Positions 3,001-12,000 are shown, numbered from the stretch's first letter. The stretch: 13,176 nucleotides of DNA from Bdellovibrionales bacterium (GCA_043739185.1 JAYUEN010000310.1:1-13176); one strand, 5' to 3'. Program-made: the numbers.

Positions 3001-6000
3001 TCACTTCGACAGAGAAGAATGCCAATACTTCACCTACCGCGGCTTCAAGTGGTTCCGATATTAATTGCTCGGCTGCTCTGCTTGCGTGTGAGAAGATAAA
3101 ATATCGTTTAGCGCAAATTGCAATTTCTTATTTGGTGACTCAGCCGCGACCTCCAATTGCGCCAAGCCTAAAAGAAATTGAAGTAACAGACACAAGTGAA
3201 CTTGCGAATGTCAGTATTCACGAGGTTGAATTTCGTGAAAATATGGTTTCATATAAAAACTCCAAAATGATGCTCATAGATCTTATTGAGCTTGCATATT
3301 TAAACAGAATTTCGATCAGTGATTACGCTCATTATAAAACCGAAGGACTTTCTTTTGATCGCTCCAAATCAAAAGGAAATGCGTTCAAATATTTCACTCC
3401 AGGAGTTGCCGTTTCAGAAGTCCTCATCGATCGCTATACTGGTGAAACCAAAATACTACGAGCGGATATCCTAATGGATCTCGGAAGACCCATGAATTTG
3501 GGAATTGATTTGGGCCAAGTGACGGGCGGATTCATTCAAGGGGCAGGCTGGATGACAACTGAAAAACTATATTACAGTCCGCAAGGCGCACTCCTTTCCT
3601 ATTCGCCAACGACTTATAAAATTCCAAATATTCAAGATACTCCACGTATTTTTAATGTAAAATTATTAGAAAATAACCTAAATGTGAAAAATGTCTCTCG
3701 ATCGAAAGCTGTGGGCGAGCCACCACTTTTATTAAGCGCCAGTGTTTTTATGGCAATTAAGAATGCGCTAAGTTACAAATCGAAGGGAAAACGCATTGAA
3801 CTCAAACTCCCGGCAACTCCAGAAGTTATTTTAACCGAACTTCATCGTCATGAACTTTGAAGCTTTTTTGTCGGAATTTAAAGCAGCTCAAGGAAGTGGT
3901 CGCCCCTTTGTTGTCGTGACTTTAGTCGATTGCCAAGGCAGTGCTCCCCAAGAAGTTGGTGCCCGCATGATTGTCAATGATCTGGGTTATTTATCAGGAA
4001 CTGTGGGCGGCGGAAAATTAGAAAAGGCAAGTATTGAAAAAGCCCAACAGCTCTTAACTGATAAAGTAATGCAACCGCAATTTCAAAAATGGAATTTACA
4101 GAGCGATCTCAAAATGAGTTGTGGCGGAGTCGTGAGCTTATTTTTTGAAATGCATAATCCCTTGGGACTTTGGAAAGTGGTGATCTTTGGAGCCGGCCAT
4201 GTTTCACAAGAACTCATTCGGGTTTTACTTCGTCTAGAATGCCAAATTATTTGCATTGATCCTCGCCTTGAATGGCTTGCTAAATTGCCAAAGGATGCCA
4301 AGCTTCAAATTGAAAATTGTCAAGATATGCCCGAAAGAGCACGAAATATAGCCAAAGAATCCTTTGTTGTACTTGCTACGATGGGGCATTCAACTGACTT
4401 TCCTATCTTAAGAGAACTATTGCTGTCGCAATCCTATTCCTATATTGGAGTTTTAGGCAGCGATGTCAAAGCTCAGAAGATGCGGCAGGAGCTTAAGAAT
4501 GAATGCATTTCGGATCAAAAAATAAATTCATTTTTCTGTCCAATTGGTGAATTCATTGGGGACAATACGCCTGCTGAAATTGCCATTAGTATTTCTGCCC
4601 AATTGTTAAAAATTCGTGATCTCAAGAATTCAAGCCGCTAAAACGTGAAAAAACGCGAATGCGATTGAAGCCGCCATCTGGGTATACCTTGATTTTTAAT
4701 TGTTGAACTTTATCGTTTAAACCAATTGGCATCGTAAATGTATTGCCAGCATAGGCTTTGACGTTGGTGCGAGAAATCAGATCCAACCATTGCTCTTTTA
4801 CAAAGGCTTGAATTTGCATTTTTAGGGGATTGTTATTTTTAAAGTATGTGAAATCAATTTCAATGTGATGAATTTTGCAGTCTTGCTTCAAACCAATGAC
4901 GATTTCTTCAAAGTGATTGGCGGTACGACTCCGTGCGGATTCAAAGCCATCAAACATATCGAGTGGCGTATAAGGAGATAAAATTTGAATTGCAGGGCCG
5001 TAGTGTTCATTTGAGGCAGAGATAATTTTAGCACCGTAAGCTAGGCTTGCGACATTAAATTCTTCGCCATTTTCTAGTCTTGCATAATTTGATTGAATTC
5101 GCTTTGAATCAATAAAGTATTTTGGGGCAAGTGGCTTTTTGGGCTGCGGAACGGCCTCATGAAAAGGATGGCTAATCGCTACTTGAGAGAATTTATTTAA
5201 TTCAGAATTTGGCAGAGTTTCAAAAATAGCAAAACGAGTGAGGCCTCCATCAGGCAATTGAGAAACTTTGAAAGTATTATATTTTTCAGTAGCCTTTTCG
5301 AGCGTGATATATTGAATGGCGTGGCCCTTAAGTTCAGTTCGATCGAGTAGGATTTTCCAATTCTGACTTTCTTCATCCCAAGCGGCGAACTGAATTGCAG
5401 GAGCTTGATTCCCCAAATGAAATTGAGTTGAGATCAAAAGATATCGAATGCAAGCAGGCTTTAATATTTTAAAAATTAAATCATCCGATGCTTTCGCATT
5501 ATGACGAACACTCTCCCAACTATCCATAATTTTACCCTGCATGCCGTAAAGTTCAGGATCGTATTCGGGAGGATGAGCTGAAAATAAATTCTCAGCGCGG
5601 GCAAACTTTTGATTGCTCACCTCTAAAATCTCTGAGCCTTTTGCAAGGCTTAAATTTAAGAGGGGGTCGACTAAAGAAGTTCGCACAATCTCTTCTGGCA
5701 GCGTGGGTCTAAAAGCGTCAAACAGCATTGTTTTGTAGGCCTGATTGACAATATTTTCAGGACTGACATTTTTTGTATTAAATTGTTTCGGAAAGGATGT
5801 TGTATCAACCCCCTCTAAGTTAAGTTCCCGACAAATCCTTTGCGCGGCCTCACAAATAAAGCTCACTCCATTGCTATCCGCATTGCATAATATAGTGAAA
5901 CCCTTGCCTAAATCTGGACCGGCAAAACAATATACAAAAATACAACGAAAGCCATCATTGGCTCCTTGATGAAGGGCAAAGCGATTCGGTCCTGCTTCAA

Positions 6001-9000: not shown

Positions 9001-12000
9001 CTACTACCAATCGCTCTCGTGAGTCCCTTTGGCCTATCACTGTTTCATAATTGGGATCTAAATAGTCGATCTTAAGATCTTGATTTAAATGATAGGCTAG
9101 TTTGGTTCTCGTATCTATAAAGTGTCTATCGATTTTTCTTTGTTTGAGTACCAAATTCAATTCACTCTGTAATTCCTCATAGAGCTCACAGAGAAATTTG
9201 AGCGCTTCCTTTGATTCAAGTCCGCCGCTCTTGCCAATTTCAGTAAGCTGCGGAACCTGGTTCACTGGTTGAGCCTGGCCTTTAAGATAGCTTAAAAACT
9301 CGTCTGAAATAAAATCTCGGTAATATTCAATATCTCGCAAGGGGTTTAACTTCCTCTGTATGTAGAAAAGCCGAAGGGACTTAAAAGCAATGGAACATGA
9401 TACTTTCGTGCAATATCTTCAACTTTAAATACCACCGAATTATTCATAAAGAAAAAAGCGCGCTTTTCTTTTTCAAAATATTTCTCAATTTCAAAGCTAA
9501 TCTGATAGGTCGCCGGAGTTAGCTCGCAATCAAAAGCAAAGCGACCATCTGAATTGGTAAGCCCGGCTTTGACTTCGATCCACTTTGTGCCTTCTCTCTT
9601 TTCAAGTCTCACTTTTACATCTGTTGCTGGAAGGCCACGACTCGTATCTAAAATATGGGTGCTAATCATTTTAACCTTCTATTTCTGGTAAATAAATTCA
9701 ACCGATAATACTTCATTTTCTCGAACTTCAATTTCTCTTGTCAGAGTGCCAAAAACCTCATGCCAAGCCTCAAGAGTATAGTGGCCAGGTGAGAGTCCTG
9801 GTATTTCATACTCGCCCTGCGAATTTGAAACGCTGAAAAAAGGATGCTCGACGACCGCAATCCATGCACTCATCCAAGGATGAACACTGCATTTTGTTTG
9901 CAGCAAGATTTCAGGTTTATCAAAAACCTGAGCAATACGATCATTTTGATTTGGCATCGCCACATTGAATTCGGCATTATTTTTAGATAATGATTTCACA
10001 TTATGAAAAACTGGATCGCTATTGATGAATTCAATTCTTTGACCAACGCGAACCCCTATGATTCGCGGCTCATATTGGCAATATCTTTGATCCAATTGCA
10101 CTGGCTTTTCGGGTATTTGATCAAAAGTTTTTCCCTCTAATCCCTTGGTAATTCGGAGCAGTACATTTTTAATTTTGTTATCGTTAATTAAAATATCATT
10201 GGCATAAACTTCAGTCTGAGCATTTTGAGCACAGGCCAATGGCAACATCAGCTTTTCACGCTTAGGAAGAATTCCTTGAAATTGAACCACTCCCTTTACT
10301 CCTGATTTTATCAACGGGCCTTCAATCGCAGAGCTTTTTTTAACTGGATTCGGGTCACTGATTGATTTTATATTTTCTTTTGAAAAGAGCATGACCCCTA
10401 AAATCAGTGTAATCCCAACTGCCAAAAAGCTCTTTGAACGCAAAGGATTCTTAAGTCTTACGACAAAAAATTCGCGAATACAGGCGCCGGCAGCACTTAT
10501 TAAGAGTAAAATGAGCCAATTTAATTTATGACCATAGGTATTGGGAAAATGATTGCTAATCATGATGAAGATTACGGGCAGAGTTAAATATGTATTATGG
10601 GTTGAGCGATTTTTTGCATTGATAGCCCATTCTTGATTGACCGGCTCGCCGCGTTTTGCGGCCGCCACTCCTTTTACCAAGCGGGGAATGATCCGCAAAA
10701 AAACATTTGCGGTCATCCAGGTTCCCAACATGCTACCCATATGCATATAGGCAGCGCGGCCACTCAGGAGATGACACAGAAAATAGGACATTCCAGAAAG
10801 CCACAATAAAGTCAGAATATGACCAAGATAGGCTTTGCTTTTTACAAAATTCTGCTCCCACAAGATATCATAAAAAAACCAAGATCCCGCAATTGAAAAA
10901 ACACTTAAGCCGATGGCCTGCCAGTAGCCAATATTTGAAATCGATGAATCGAGTAAAAAGCTGCCATTTCCCGTATAAAAAATCATGACGATTAAAAATA
11001 CGCCACTCATCCAGGTCCAATAGGATTCCCATTTAAACCAGTGAAGATGTTCAGGTACTTTCGTAGGGCCAATTAAGAGTTTTTCAACATGATAAAAGCC
11101 GCCGCCATGAACCATCCATAGATCCCCAATATGGCCCGGACTCTTAGAATTTTCATTGAATTCGAAACTTCGATCGAGCCACATAAAAAAAATAGATGTC
11201 CCAATCCAAGTAATGCCAACTGTAATATGCAGCCAACGACCTAATAATAATAACCAATCAAAAATTTCTTGATTCAAGTTTTAACCTCAAATTTTAATAC
11301 CGAACTTTATCGATTTTATGATTCCAAATATCAAAAACTTTTAATGCTTCATCTCTGCAAACTTGTTGCATACTAATTTTACGTGATTTTAAATCCTTGG
11401 GTATTTCTTGATAAAGAAATTCGTCGTCAAATTGAATCGCGGCCGCATCCGCCCGAGTGTTGGCGTAATAAATTTTTGACAATCGCGCCCAATAAATAGC
11501 AGACAAACACATCGGGCAGGGTTCACAACTTGTATAAATTTCGGCACCAGCTAATTCAAAATTATTCAGGTTTTTGCAGGCCTCGCGAATGGCTTCAACT
11601 TCTGCATGGGCGGTGGGATCATTGGTAAGCGTAACTTTGTTCCAGCCCTCACCAATAATTTTCTGATCTAAAACGACCACTGCTCCAAATGGACCGCCGC
11701 CTCTGGTTTCAACATTGAGCTTCGAAAGTTCGATCGCCCTTTTCATAAATTTCTGATGATTTGCATTTGAGTTCATTGGTCCCTCTCTGGACCAACAACT
11801 CTAGCGGGGCTTTTTAATACAGTCCAATCCTAGACTCCTACTTTGACAAGCTGCAGGGTATTTGAGACTTTAAATTCCCACTGAACAATCAAATTTACCA
11901 CTCGAAGTGGGGGCTCCGGTTTTAGAAAAGCCTTTGAAAGACCCAATATAGTGCCGTTCGGTGTCAGTAGAGCCTTCAAAATCTGGCTCGGTGTTCTCAG

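What a model noticed while it worked through the whole genome (the two positions that open the first line are those of the whole stretch)
4622..9340. Serine beta-lactamase-fold domain in a five-enzyme purine-catabolism fusion: candidate third type of allantoinase
A 1572-aa protein in a guanine-to-glyoxylate gene cluster fuses malate synthase, OHCU decarboxylase, a PF00144 serine beta-lactamase/DD-peptidase-fold domain and a two-repeat allantoicase, while the genome has no AllB- or PuuE-type allantoinase. I read the beta-lactamase-fold domain, which sits exactly between the enzyme that makes allantoin and the one that uses allantoate, as a new, non-homologous allantoinase that opens the hydantoin ring with an active-site serine. 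If true it would be a third, unrelated class of allantoinase and a new reaction type for the class C beta-lactamase/DD-peptidase family, within a single-chain urate-to-malate channel.
Evidence so far: Pfam rows of g02929: MS_TIM-barrel 239-451, MS_C 525-642, OHCU_decarbox 707-818, Beta-lactamase 830-1157 (E 2e-16), Allantoicase 1235-1373 and 1436-1566. Neighbours on C310: xanthine dehydrogenase XdhAB+XdhC, HIU hydrolase, PuuD-like urate oxidase (Urate_ox_N), guanine deaminase. Own-genome six-frame search: TIGR03178 allantoinase best hit is g04026 at 275 bits, under the 357.85 cut, and g04026 is the genome's only equivalog dihydroorotase (NF006559 611 bits); TIGR03212 PuuE: 0 matches; genome 97.65% complete. 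528 relatives with E<=1e-3 among 8000 scored; 102 of the best 120 are 1500-1720 aa and carry the same five Pfam families; named ones from Bdellovibrio, Bacteriovorax, Halobacteriovorax [...]
(Added by a program. Inside this text positions count along the whole contig: contig position 1 is position 1 of the stretch shown here. "Call 12" and the like, gene names such as g00115 and contig names such as C1 are that model's own, and its searches are not shown. The text may have been shortened before it was handed on; [...] marks where a part breaks off. The agent that wrote the report below was given it as the finding of a first reader that could run no searches.)

Follow-up and report, generated by a model that had tools for sequence, protein, structure and literature searches.

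The report
Candidate serine-type allantoinase in urate-breakdown fusion
One very long bacterial gene joins four enzyme modules of uric-acid breakdown, and its beta-lactamase-like module is very probably an unrecognised, third kind of allantoinase that also occurs, on its own and addressed to peroxisomes, in many protists.

Summary
In detail: window 4622-9340 (-) encodes a 1572-aa protein with malate-synthase-like, OHCU-decarboxylase, PF00144 beta-lactamase-fold and two-repeat allantoicase modules. It sits in a guanine-to-glyoxylate gene cluster.

The allantoinase reading is well supported by comparison but untested at the bench:
- Among 95 allantoicase-bearing genomes of the phylum, 60 carry this module. 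Only 1 of those 60 has AllB, against 31 of the 35 without the module. No PuuE was found in the 80 genomes tested. AllA does not follow this pattern.
- Ser-x-x-Lys, Tyr-Ser-Gly and His-Gln-Gly are invariant.
- Stand-alone relatives are mostly eukaryotic, and 50 of 102 end in a peroxisomal -SKL-type signal.
- A dinoflagellate protein fuses this module to an AllA-type ureidoglycolate lyase and allantoicase, which leaves allantoinase as the one unfilled step.

The "malate synthase" reading is doubtful. The module scores far below the family cut-off and lacks Arg276. Eukaryotic malate-synthase-like proteins are proven ureidoglycolate lyases (PMC10120013). The protein is therefore probably four consecutive steps, not a urate-to-malate channel.

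I found no paper describing such an allantoinase. The scan noted the same fusion earlier on four other genomes.

The parts
4622..9340 (-). Fusion gene, 1572 aa, TTG start. Modules in order: MS-like, OHCU decarboxylase, beta-lactamase-fold, allantoicase x2.
   Evidence: Full-length relatives of 1550-1600 aa.
7361..9340 (-). Malate-synthase-like module (residues 1-660), a candidate ureidoglycolate lyase and/or malate synthase. Counterparts of E. coli MSA residues: R238=R166, E323=E250, W349=R276, D351=D278, W441=W365, D564=D447.
   Evidence: Pfam. TIGR01344 at 146.5 bits against a cut-off of 594.5. Alignment to 3CUZ. Positions. Paper PMC10120013.
6887..7360 (-). OHCU decarboxylase module (residues 661-818), which makes (S)-allantoin.
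   Evidence: PF09349 at 62.5 bits against a cut-off of 24. TIGR03180 at 67.1 bits, below its 139.4 cut-off.
5696..6886 (-). Beta-lactamase/DD-peptidase-fold module (residues 819-1215), the candidate allantoinase.
   Evidence: PF00144 at 58.8 bits. AlphaFold2 model with pLDDT 92. Foldseek hits. Invariant motifs. AllB exclusion.
6698..6715 (-). Codons for A-S-L-S-K-S, the Ser877-x-x-Lys880 nucleophile motif.
   Evidence: Invariant in 31 of 31 rows and 36 of 36 rows. Aligned to Ser62/Lys65 of R61 DD-peptidase. Position.
6374..6397 (-). Codons for F-Q-Y-S-G-G-G-F. Tyr984-Ser-Gly986 occupies the place of the Tyr-x-Asn motif, with Gly in place of Asn.
5945..5971 (-). Codons for H-Q-G-A-N-D-G-F-R. 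His1124-Gln-Gly occupies the place of the KTG/HTG box, followed by the family-specific invariants Asn1128 and Arg1132.
   Evidence: This motif was also used as the search pattern.
4622..5695 (-). Two allantoicase repeats (residues 1216-1572) plus the stop codon.
   Evidence: PF03561 at 159.9 bits, 2 stretches. TIGR02961 at 165.9 bits, below its 277.9 cut-off.
9346..9669 (-). HIU hydrolase, 5 bases upstream of the fusion gene.
   Evidence: PF00576. TIGR02962 at 120.1 bits against a cut-off of 87.45.
9679..11277 (-). PuuD-type membrane urate oxidase with a C-terminal CarboxypepD_reg-like part.
   Evidence: PF06181 at 338 bits.
11294..11776 (-). CDA-fold zinc deaminase. Guanine deaminase is inferred from context.
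   Evidence: PF00383 at 93.9 bits. Below the TadA cut-off. The same gene type lies in the Planctomycetota cluster L014.
31..4641 (+). Xanthine dehydrogenase genes, convergent with the fusion gene: XdhA-like 31-1476, XdhB 1473-3860, XdhC 3850-4641.

Best explanation
The gene encodes one polypeptide that carries out the lower part of urate breakdown. The OHCU-decarboxylase module makes (S)-allantoin.

The beta-lactamase-fold module (residues about 819-1215) opens the hydantoin ring of allantoin to give allantoate. The inferred route is a covalent acyl-enzyme. Ser877, activated by Lys880 and Tyr984, attacks the ring carbonyl C4. The ring nitrogen leaves but stays tethered, as in beta-lactam opening. 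Water then releases allantoate.

The two allantoicase repeats split allantoate into ureidoglycolate and urea. The malate-synthase-like module probably converts ureidoglycolate to glyoxylate and urea, and possibly goes on to malate.

What is shown here: the architecture, the conservation of the catalytic motifs, the fold, the gene context, the near-exclusion with AllB and the eukaryotic fusions. What is inferred: the substrate and the chemistry.
For: 1. Pathway hole. The own genome has no AllB over the cut-off, no PuuE and no AllA. Its best AllB-like ORF is a dihydroorotase.

2. Mutual exclusion with AllB. Allantoicase was found in 95 of 401 genomes sampled from the phylum. Of these, 60 carry this module: 47 of 80 plus 13 of 15.
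- AllB over the cut-off occurs in 1 of those 60 (G270), against 31 of the 35 without the module.
- Two more of the 35 (G163, G374) have AllB fragments at contig ends.
- In 30 of the 31 genomes with AllB, AllB lies next to a canonical about 350-aa allantoicase.
- Three genera (g91, g107, g157) hold both states.
- PuuE is over the cut-off in 0 of 80.
- AllA occurs in only 3 of 80, all without the module. The module therefore replaces AllB rather than AllA.

3. A second phylum. 0 of 5 Planctomycetota genomes with the fusion have AllB or PuuE. There the fusion sits beside a classical uricase.

4. Catalytic motifs. S-x-x-K, Y-S-G and H-Q-G are invariant in 31 of 31 rows of the bacterial alignment and in 36 of 36 rows of the mixed bacterial and eukaryotic alignment. 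They align with Ser62/Lys65, Tyr159 and His298 of R61 DD-peptidase.

5. Fold. The model has pLDDT 92. Foldseek gives PF00144 enzymes at probability 1.0.

6. Fusion partners. The module is always joined to allantoicase: the full four-module fusion, OHCU+bla+ALC, or bla+ALC. P0167 from the dinoflagellate Polykrikos kofoidii has bla, PF04115 AllA-type lyase and allantoicase, and ends in -SKL. P0500 from the copepod Oithona nana has bla and allantoicase.

7. Peroxisomal signals. 50 of 102 stand-alone homologues of 380-520 aa end in [SAC][KRH][LM].

8. One family. These sequences form a single clade with 100 SH-aLRT support, apart from 8 generic PF00144 proteins.
Against: - There is no biochemical test of any member.
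- From my own knowledge, no PF00144 enzyme is known to hydrolyse a hydantoin. The nearest solved structures are esterases, DD-peptidases and class C beta-lactamases at 15-19% identity.
- The Asn of the Tyr-x-Asn motif is Gly.
- The exclusion is between two gene cassettes (AllB+canonical allantoicase against the fusion), and the genomes are kin. The number of independent events is far smaller than 95.
- G270 has both AllB and the module.
- 52 of the 102 stand-alone homologues lack a strict PTS1.
- I could not check whether the eukaryotes that carry the module lack a DAL1-type allantoinase.
- PuuE and AllA were not searched in 15 of the 95 genomes.
Confidence: 0.7

Rival explanations
1. The module is an amidase for another ureide step. 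It could be a ureidoglycolate amidohydrolase or lyase, or an allantoate-type amidohydrolase. Allantoin would then be opened by something else or without an enzyme.
For: AllA is also absent from the own genome. The module always sits beside allantoicase, which would fit a downstream step as well as an upstream one.
Against: - AllA is missing from 31 of the 34 genomes with a canonical stand-alone allantoicase as well as from all fusion genomes tested. The module therefore does not stand in for AllA.
- The Polykrikos protein already has an AllA-type lyase and allantoicase beside the module.
- The malate-synthase-like partner belongs to a family with proven ureidoglycolate lyase members (PMC10120013, section 10).
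- From my own knowledge, allantoin is stable, so an unfilled allantoinase step would block the pathway.
Confidence: 0.1
2. The module has a helper role, and the true allantoinase lies elsewhere. Helper roles could be allantoin racemase-like activity, metabolite repair, a scaffold or a regulator. The true allantoinase could be a moonlighting dihydroorotase-like amidohydrolase or an unknown protein.
For: Every fusion genome keeps at least one AllB-like amidohydrolase scoring 138-300 bits. The own genome has a further unassigned amidohydrolase, L002.
Against: - The same sub-cut-off paralogues occur in genomes that also have a true AllB, for example G258 at 319 bits and G213 at 310 bits. They are not specific to fusion genomes.
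- The own 275-bit ORF is an equivalog dihydroorotase.
- L002 matches the AllB model only over positions 15-88.
- Invariant Ser, Lys, Tyr and His argue for catalysis rather than scaffolding.
- OHCU decarboxylase yields one enantiomer, so a racemase is not needed (my own knowledge).
Confidence: 0.15
3. The module is an ordinary peptidase, esterase or beta-lactamase unrelated to purines and was fused by accident.
For: The structural neighbours are esterases, DD-peptidases, ClbP, LACTB and class C beta-lactamases.
Against: - The linkage to allantoicase recurs in Bdellovibrionota, Planctomycetota, a dinoflagellate and a copepod, in different architectures.
- The family is a separate clade with its own invariant H-Q-[AG]-A-N-[DE]-G-F-R box.
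- The class C beta-lactamase model scores 20.4 bits against a cut-off of 415.
Confidence: 0.03

Closest known systems
AllB/DAL1 allantoinase (binuclear-metal amidohydrolase, TIGR03178)
   Same: It would catalyse the proposed reaction, allantoin to allantoate. It holds the same place in the pathway and lies next to allantoicase in the sister genomes.
   Different: There is no sequence or fold relation. AllB is metal-dependent and uses a carbamylated lysine (PMC9863593, abstract seen in the listing), whereas the module would use a serine acyl-enzyme. AllB is over the cut-off in only 1 of the 60 genomes that carry the module.
PuuE allantoinase (polysaccharide-deacetylase fold, TIGR03212)
   Same: It is a precedent for a non-homologous, metal-independent allantoinase found by pathway-hole logic (my own knowledge of Ramazzina et al. 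2008; the paper was not read here).
   Different: The fold is different. PuuE is over the cut-off in 0 of 80 genomes of this phylum.
Streptomyces R61 DD-peptidase, class C beta-lactamases and family VIII esterases (PF00144)
   Same: They share the fold, the Ser-x-x-Lys nucleophile, the Tyr of the second motif and the His/Lys-x-Gly third motif. Opening a cyclic amide through an acyl-enzyme is the hallmark chemistry of the fold.
   Different: Identity is only 15-19%. The Asn of Tyr-x-Asn is an invariant Gly, and there is a family-specific A-N-D-G-F-R extension. The protein is cytosolic or peroxisomal and fused to ureide enzymes. The class C model scores far below its cut-off.
Eukaryotic malate-synthase-like ureidoglycolate lyase (zebrafish DrMSL/UGL; PMC10120013)
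   Same: The N-terminal module is a divergent malate-synthase homologue tied to allantoicase, with the glyoxylate-site Arg276 replaced. In fusions of the bla module with allantoicase, the third partner is either this module or an AllA-type lyase.
   Different: Arg276 is Trp here, not Ile, and Trp365 is kept, not Met. The paper states that its UGL group is purely eukaryotic (section 11). The module is about 660 aa and has an 8-residue insertion before the catalytic Asp. The state of the acetyl-CoA site was not assessed.
Yeast DAL cluster (DAL1, DAL2, DAL3, DAL7)
   Same: The same set of steps is kept together: allantoinase, allantoicase, ureidoglycolate lyase and malate synthase (PMC10120013, section 12).
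   Different: Here the steps are domains of one chain. Two of the four are performed by non-orthologous folds.

Membership tests
PF00144 serine beta-lactamase/DD-peptidase fold | Profile match above the gathering score | tested here: met
   58.8 bits against a cut-off of 27, E 6.7e-16.
PF00144 serine beta-lactamase/DD-peptidase fold | Ser-x-x-Lys motif | tested here: met
   S877-L-S-K880. Invariant in 31 of 31 and 36 of 36 rows. Aligned to R61 Ser62/Lys65.
PF00144 serine beta-lactamase/DD-peptidase fold | Tyr-x-Asn second motif | tested here: inconclusive
   Tyr984 is invariant, but the Asn position is an invariant Gly, giving Y-S-G.
PF00144 serine beta-lactamase/DD-peptidase fold | Lys/His-Thr/Ser-Gly third motif and overall fold | tested here: met
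   H1124-Q-G1126 aligns with R61 H298-T-G. The model has pLDDT 92. Foldseek probability is 1.0 to IS11 esterase, R61, ClbP, ADC-7 and LACTB.
Class C beta-lactamase (NF033085) | Equivalog score | tested here: not met
   20.4 bits against a cut-off of 415.
AllB allantoinase (TIGR03178) | Homology to the cyclic amidohydrolase family | tested here: not met
   The fusion protein has no AllB match among its NCBIfam rows. The genome's best AllB-like hit lies on another contig and is a dihydroorotase.
PuuE allantoinase (TIGR03212) | Homology to the polysaccharide-deacetylase-type allantoinase | tested here: not met
   0 matches in the own genome.
Allantoinase as an activity (EC 3.5.2.5) | Hydrolysis of allantoin to allantoate | not testable with these tools
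   Only comparative evidence is available.
Malate synthase A (TIGR01344) | Equivalog score and conserved glyoxylate-site Arg276 | tested here: not met
   146.5 bits against a cut-off of 594.5. Arg276 is Trp349, while R166, E250, D278, W365 and D447 are kept.
Eukaryotic MS-like ureidoglycolate lyase (DrMSL type) | Arg276 and Trp365 substituted, acetyl-CoA site not conserved, 2-aa insertion (PMC10120013, section 10) | tested here: inconclusive
   Arg276 is substituted (to Trp) and Trp365 is retained. The acetyl-CoA site and the insertion were not assessable because the paper's supplement could not be read.
Allantoicase (PF03561 / TIGR02961) | Two allantoicase repeats | tested here: met
   PF03561 at 159.9 bits in 2 stretches. 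The equivalog TIGR02961 gives 165.9 bits, below its 277.9 cut-off, so this is a divergent member.
OHCU decarboxylase (PF09349) | Profile match above the gathering score | tested here: met
   62.5 bits against a cut-off of 24, covering profile positions 39-154 of 155. TIGR03180 is below its cut-off.

The most novel reading that the evidence does not exclude
This PF00144 clade would be a third, serine-dependent class of allantoinase. It would be the working allantoinase of most allantoicase-bearing Bdellovibrionota, of some Planctomycetota, and of the peroxisomes of many protists and some copepods. In addition, the malate-synthase-like partner would be a bacterial ureidoglycolate lyase, or the bifunctional UGL/malate synthase that Dembech et al. 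proposed as the ancestor. One chain would then channel OHCU through four or five consecutive steps to glyoxylate or malate.
Probability: 0.35. Interest if true: 0.85.

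Novelty: new variant of a known kind. Interest (0 to 1): 0.75.

Why it matters
From my own knowledge, allantoinase is known in two unrelated forms, AllB/DAL1 and PuuE. A third, serine-based form would have several consequences.
- It would fill a pathway hole in 59 of the 95 allantoicase-bearing genomes sampled in this phylum.
- It would probably fill the same hole in many marine protists, where purine recycling matters for nitrogen budgets.
- It would add hydantoin-ring opening to the reactions of the beta-lactamase/DD-peptidase fold.
- It would correct widespread annotations such as 'serine hydrolase', 'malate synthase' and 'CubicO peptidase'.
- It would extend the recent discovery of malate-synthase-like ureidoglycolate lyases from eukaryotes to bacteria.

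The claim can be tested directly with one recombinant domain and a standard allantoin assay.

Tried and rejected
- Structure search returned only generic PF00144 enzymes at 15-19% identity. It gave no hint about the substrate.
- Sequence search of solved structures gave R61 DD-peptidase at E 2e-5. It was useful only for mapping motifs.
- ESM Atlas gave only generic 'malate synthase family' and 'beta-lactamase domain' clusters.
- The own-genome alternatives for allantoinase were considered and set aside. The 275-bit AllB-like ORF is an equivalog dihydroorotase. L002 is a generic amidohydrolase that matches AllB only over positions 15-88.
- PuuE was not found in any of the genomes tested.
- Literature searches for a beta-lactamase-fold or serine-hydrolase allantoinase found nothing relevant in the CC-licensed PMC and bioRxiv library. 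Subscription journals are not covered.
- The supplement of PMC10120013, which holds the alignment of MS and UGL residues, could not be read. The acetyl-CoA site of the MS-like module therefore stays unassessed.
- The two small ORFs at 11870-12400 (-) and 12688-13176 (+) have no family, even at E<=1.
- Earlier-findings look-ups by place and by sequence returned nothing.

Full report
**What is in the window.** The window holds two convergent operons.
- On the plus strand lie xdhA-like (31-1476), xdhB (1473-3860) and xdhC (3850-4641).
- On the minus strand, separated by gaps of 16, 9 and 5 bases, lie a CDA-fold deaminase (11776-11294), a PuuD-type urate oxidase (11277-9679), HIU hydrolase (9669-9346) and a 1572-aa ORF (9340-4622).
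- Pfam finds in that ORF MS_TIM-barrel 239-451, MS_C 525-642, OHCU_decarbox 707-818, Beta-lactamase 830-1157 (58.8 bits against a cut-off of 27) and two allantoicase repeats from 1235.
- NCBIfam places every module below its equivalog cut-off. Allantoicase scores 165.9 against 277.9, malate synthase A 141-146 against 594.5, and OHCU decarboxylase 67 against 139. All four modules are therefore divergent members of their families.

**The pathway hole.** The own genome is 97.65% complete and has 540 contigs.
- It has no AllB above the cut-off. The best hit scores 275.4 bits against 357.85, and that ORF is a dihydroorotase by NF006559, 610.9 bits against 482.
- It has no PuuE and no AllA-type ureidoglycolate lyase.
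- Two steps therefore lack a recognised gene: allantoinase and ureidoglycolate lyase.
- Two modules of the fusion have no secure function: the beta-lactamase-fold module and the malate-synthase-like module.

**The module looks like an active enzyme.** In an alignment with 30 full-length relatives at 48-58% identity, several residues are invariant (positions): Ser877-x-x-Lys880, His937, His943-Tyr944, Tyr984-Ser-Gly986, His1124-Gln-Gly1126, Asn1128 and Arg1132.
- Almost the same set stays invariant when 35 stand-alone relatives at 33-42% identity are aligned instead. Gln1125 there is only nearly invariant (90% or more of rows).
- phmmer against solved structures finds Streptomyces R61 DD-peptidase at E 2e-5. 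Ser62/Lys65, Tyr159 and His298-Thr-Gly of R61 align with these motifs. The Asn of Tyr-x-Asn is replaced by Gly.
- The AlphaFold2 model is confident, with pLDDT 92 and pTM 0.92.
- Foldseek returns only PF00144 enzymes at 15-19% identity: esterase IS11, R61, ClbP, ADC-7, LACTB and D-amino-acid amidase.
- The fold and the catalytic apparatus are thus those of a serine acyl-enzyme hydrolase. The substrate cannot be read from these matches.

**Distribution and architectures.** A profile-free search of 1.84 billion cluster representatives found 99 proteins at E<=1e-30.
- Pfam scans of 42 of them show the module in four settings: the full four-module fusion, OHCU-decarboxylase + module + allantoicase (about 1000 aa), module + allantoicase (about 750 aa), and alone (about 390-450 aa).
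- A pattern scan of one genome per prokaryotic species found 226 species encoding a relative. The best 80 are Bdellovibrionota, several Planctomycetota MAGs and a few oddly labelled MAGs. The Bdellovibrionota include Bdellovibrio sp. HCB337, Peredibacter sp. HCB2-198, Oligoflexus tunisiensis, Bacteriovorax, Halobacteriovoraceae and Silvanigrellaceae.
- In a Planctomycetota locus (L014) the same fusion (1686 aa) lies between a classical cofactor-less uricase, a CDA-fold deaminase and xdhAB. In Oligoflexus tunisiensis it lies between PuuD, xdhAB and a xanthine/uracil permease.
- The purine context is therefore conserved even where the type of urate oxidase changes.

**The exclusion test.** Allantoicase (PF03561) was found in 95 of 401 genomes sampled evenly from the phylum. 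It comes in two forms.
- One is a canonical stand-alone gene (frames of about 335-370 aa, E about 1e-50).
- The other is the divergent repeats inside frames of about 1550 aa (E about 1e-25).
- The tool takes 80 handles at most. I first ran 80 genomes, after dropping 15 fusion-type genomes of 92% completeness or less, or with fragmentary matches, before any counting. I then ran those 15 separately.
- The module is present in 47 of 80 and in 13 of 15, which makes 60 of 95.
- AllB over its cut-off is present in 31 of 80 and in 1 of 15.

| | AllB over cut-off | No AllB over cut-off |
|---|---|---|
| Module present (60 genomes) | 1 (G270) | 59 |
| Module absent (35 genomes) | 31 | 4 |

- Of the 4 genomes with neither, G163 and G374 have AllB-like fragments at contig ends. 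G338 (90% complete) and G393 (89% complete) have none.
- In 30 of the 31 AllB-positive genomes, AllB sits within a few hundred bases of the canonical allantoicase (coordinates).
- PuuE is over the cut-off in 0 of 80 (best 37.9 bits).
- AllA is present in only 3 of 80 (G041, G281, G338), all without the module. It is thus missing from 31 of the 34 canonical-allantoicase genomes as well.
- The module therefore takes the place of AllB, not of AllA.
- Three genera (g91, g107, g157) contain both states, so the switch happened several times.
- Sub-cut-off AllB-like paralogues of 138-320 bits occur in both classes and are not specific to fusion genomes.
- In a second phylum, 0 of 5 Planctomycetota genomes with the fusion have AllB or PuuE over the cut-off. 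The same holds for 5 named Bdellovibrionota genomes, two of which duplicate genomes already counted.
- Caveat: the genomes are kin, and the exclusion is between two cassettes. The count overstates the number of independent events.

**Eukaryotic relatives.**
- The stand-alone relatives come largely from EukProt and MMETSP transcriptomes and from named eukaryotes: a chrysophyte, Prymnesium parvum and Amorphochlora amoebiformis.
- Of 102 stand-alone homologues of 380-520 aa, 50 end in a strict peroxisomal PTS1 tripeptide [SAC][KRH][LM], mostly -SKL. With equal residue frequencies about 0.2% would be expected. Peroxisomes are where eukaryotes degrade urate (PMC9244630, passages; PMC10120013, section 12).
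- P0167 from the dinoflagellate Polykrikos kofoidii (1004 aa, ending -SKL) has this module at 2-311, a PF04115 AllA-type ureidoglycolate lyase at 379-558 and two allantoicase repeats. All signature motifs are intact.
- That protein already contains the enzymes for allantoate to ureidoglycolate and for ureidoglycolate to glyoxylate. Allantoin to allantoate is the one step left for the module.
- A copepod (Oithona nana) genome CDS fuses the module to allantoicase. P0209 (943 aa) does the same and ends in -SKL.
- In a quick maximum-likelihood tree (81 rows, LG+G4, SH-aLRT only), all ureide-linked sequences form one clade with support 100, apart from 8 generic PF00144 proteins. The bacterial fusions form a sub-clade with support 97. 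The Polykrikos domain groups with eukaryotic PTS1 forms.

**The 'malate synthase' module.** Dembech et al. (PNAS 2023, PMC10120013; I read the abstract and sections 10-12 in full and saw passages of section 9) showed that zebrafish malate-synthase-like protein is a ureidoglycolate lyase without malate synthase activity.
- According to the paper, such proteins differ from true malate synthase at Arg276 and Trp365 and in the acetyl-CoA site, and their UGL group contains only eukaryotes. The authors also hypothesised an ancestral bifunctional MS/UGL.
- In the alignment to E. coli malate synthase A (3CUZ), the module here keeps Arg166, Glu250, Asp278, Trp365 and Asp447. It has Trp in place of Arg276 and an 8-residue insertion before the catalytic Asp.
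- It has many stand-alone bacterial relatives of about 680 aa at 50-60% identity.
- Among the 34 canonical-allantoicase genomes, only G270 has this family. There it is a separate gene in the same locus as PuuD, a bla-allantoicase gene and two class-V aminotransferases.
- The other matches in that set (14 of 34) are ordinary malate synthases at about 30% identity, located elsewhere.
- In fusions of the module with allantoicase, the third partner is thus either an AllA-type lyase (Polykrikos) or this MS-like module (bacteria). That is what one expects if both do the same job.
- I rate ureidoglycolate lyase, alone or together with malate synthase, at about 0.6. The acetyl-CoA site could not be judged because the paper's supplement was unreadable.
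- The own genome has no MS-A or MS-G over the cut-off. A malate-synthase role therefore cannot be dismissed.

**Mechanism proposed (inferred, not shown).** Allantoin is a 5-ureidohydantoin. Opening it to allantoate cleaves the ring N3-C4 amide, the same kind of cyclic-amide opening that defines this fold.
- Ser877 would attack C4, with Lys880 and Tyr984 as general bases and the His1124-Gln-Gly strand supplying the oxyanion hole.
- The ring nitrogen would leave as the second ureido group, still tethered to the acyl-enzyme.
- Water would then release allantoate to the adjacent allantoicase repeats.
- The invariant Gly986 (in place of Asn), Gln1125, Asn1128 and Arg1132 are candidates for recognising the ureido and carbonyl groups.

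**Comparison and novelty.**
- It would work like AllB and PuuE in reaction and pathway place, but it belongs to neither family (membership tests).
- It is a member of the PF00144 fold family, with one altered motif.
- Seven literature searches of the CC-licensed PMC and bioRxiv library found no description of such an allantoinase. Subscription journals are not covered.
- The scan itself has noted the same fusion on four other genomes with the same reading. I saw those notes after my own tests, and they do not count as independent evidence.

**Verdict.**
The allantoinase reading is strengthened, to a confidence of about 0.7. The malate-synthase and 'five-enzyme urate-to-malate' reading is probably wrong.
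- Interest is 0.75.

Noticed in passing
own genome (G000), whole: No urease alpha subunit (0 matches) and no urea carboxylase over the cut-off. The two urea molecules released per urate are apparently not used for nitrogen in this organism.
   Followed up: partly
G000:C299:3651-4457: A second malate-synthase-like paralogue (454-aa frame, 100.5 bits to TIGR01344) lies outside the cluster. The genome has no MS-A or MS-G over the cut-off.
   Followed up: no
L083 (G270:C12:1-14000): A split version of the module set in a genome that also keeps canonical AllB. The locus holds PuuD, a 772-aa bla-allantoicase gene, a class-V aminotransferase, a lone single-repeat allantoicase ORF of 166 aa, a separate 735-aa MS-like gene and a second class-V aminotransferase. 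The aminotransferases hint at glyoxylate-to-glycine as a sink.
   Followed up: partly
L014:6106-7017 and L014:7196-12256: In Planctomycetota the same fusion (1686 aa, with a longer N-terminus) sits beside a classical cofactor-less uricase (PF01014) instead of PuuD.
   Followed up: partly
L061:7577-12184: In a MAG labelled Pseudomonadales the fusion is broken into ORFs of 993 aa and 518 aa inside the beta-lactamase-fold module. This could be a frameshift, an assembly error or a real split. An ammonium transporter and P-II lie nearby.
   Followed up: no
window 11870-12400 (-) and 12688-13176 (+): Two ORFs (176 aa, and 163 aa open at the window end) with no Pfam family even at E<=1.
   Followed up: partly
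window 9679-11277 (-): The PuuD-type urate oxidase carries a C-terminal CarboxypepD_reg-like stretch at residues 482-528 (29.4 bits, below its cut-off of 32.3), beyond the Urate_ox_N domain.
   Followed up: no
window 4622-4641: The 3' ends of the fusion gene and of xdhC overlap by 20 bases on opposite strands.
   Followed up: no
P0500 / P0179 cluster: A metazoan, the copepod Oithona nana, has a genome-predicted bla-allantoicase fusion of 926 aa. Whether it is a true animal gene or comes from contaminating DNA was not checked.
   Followed up: partly
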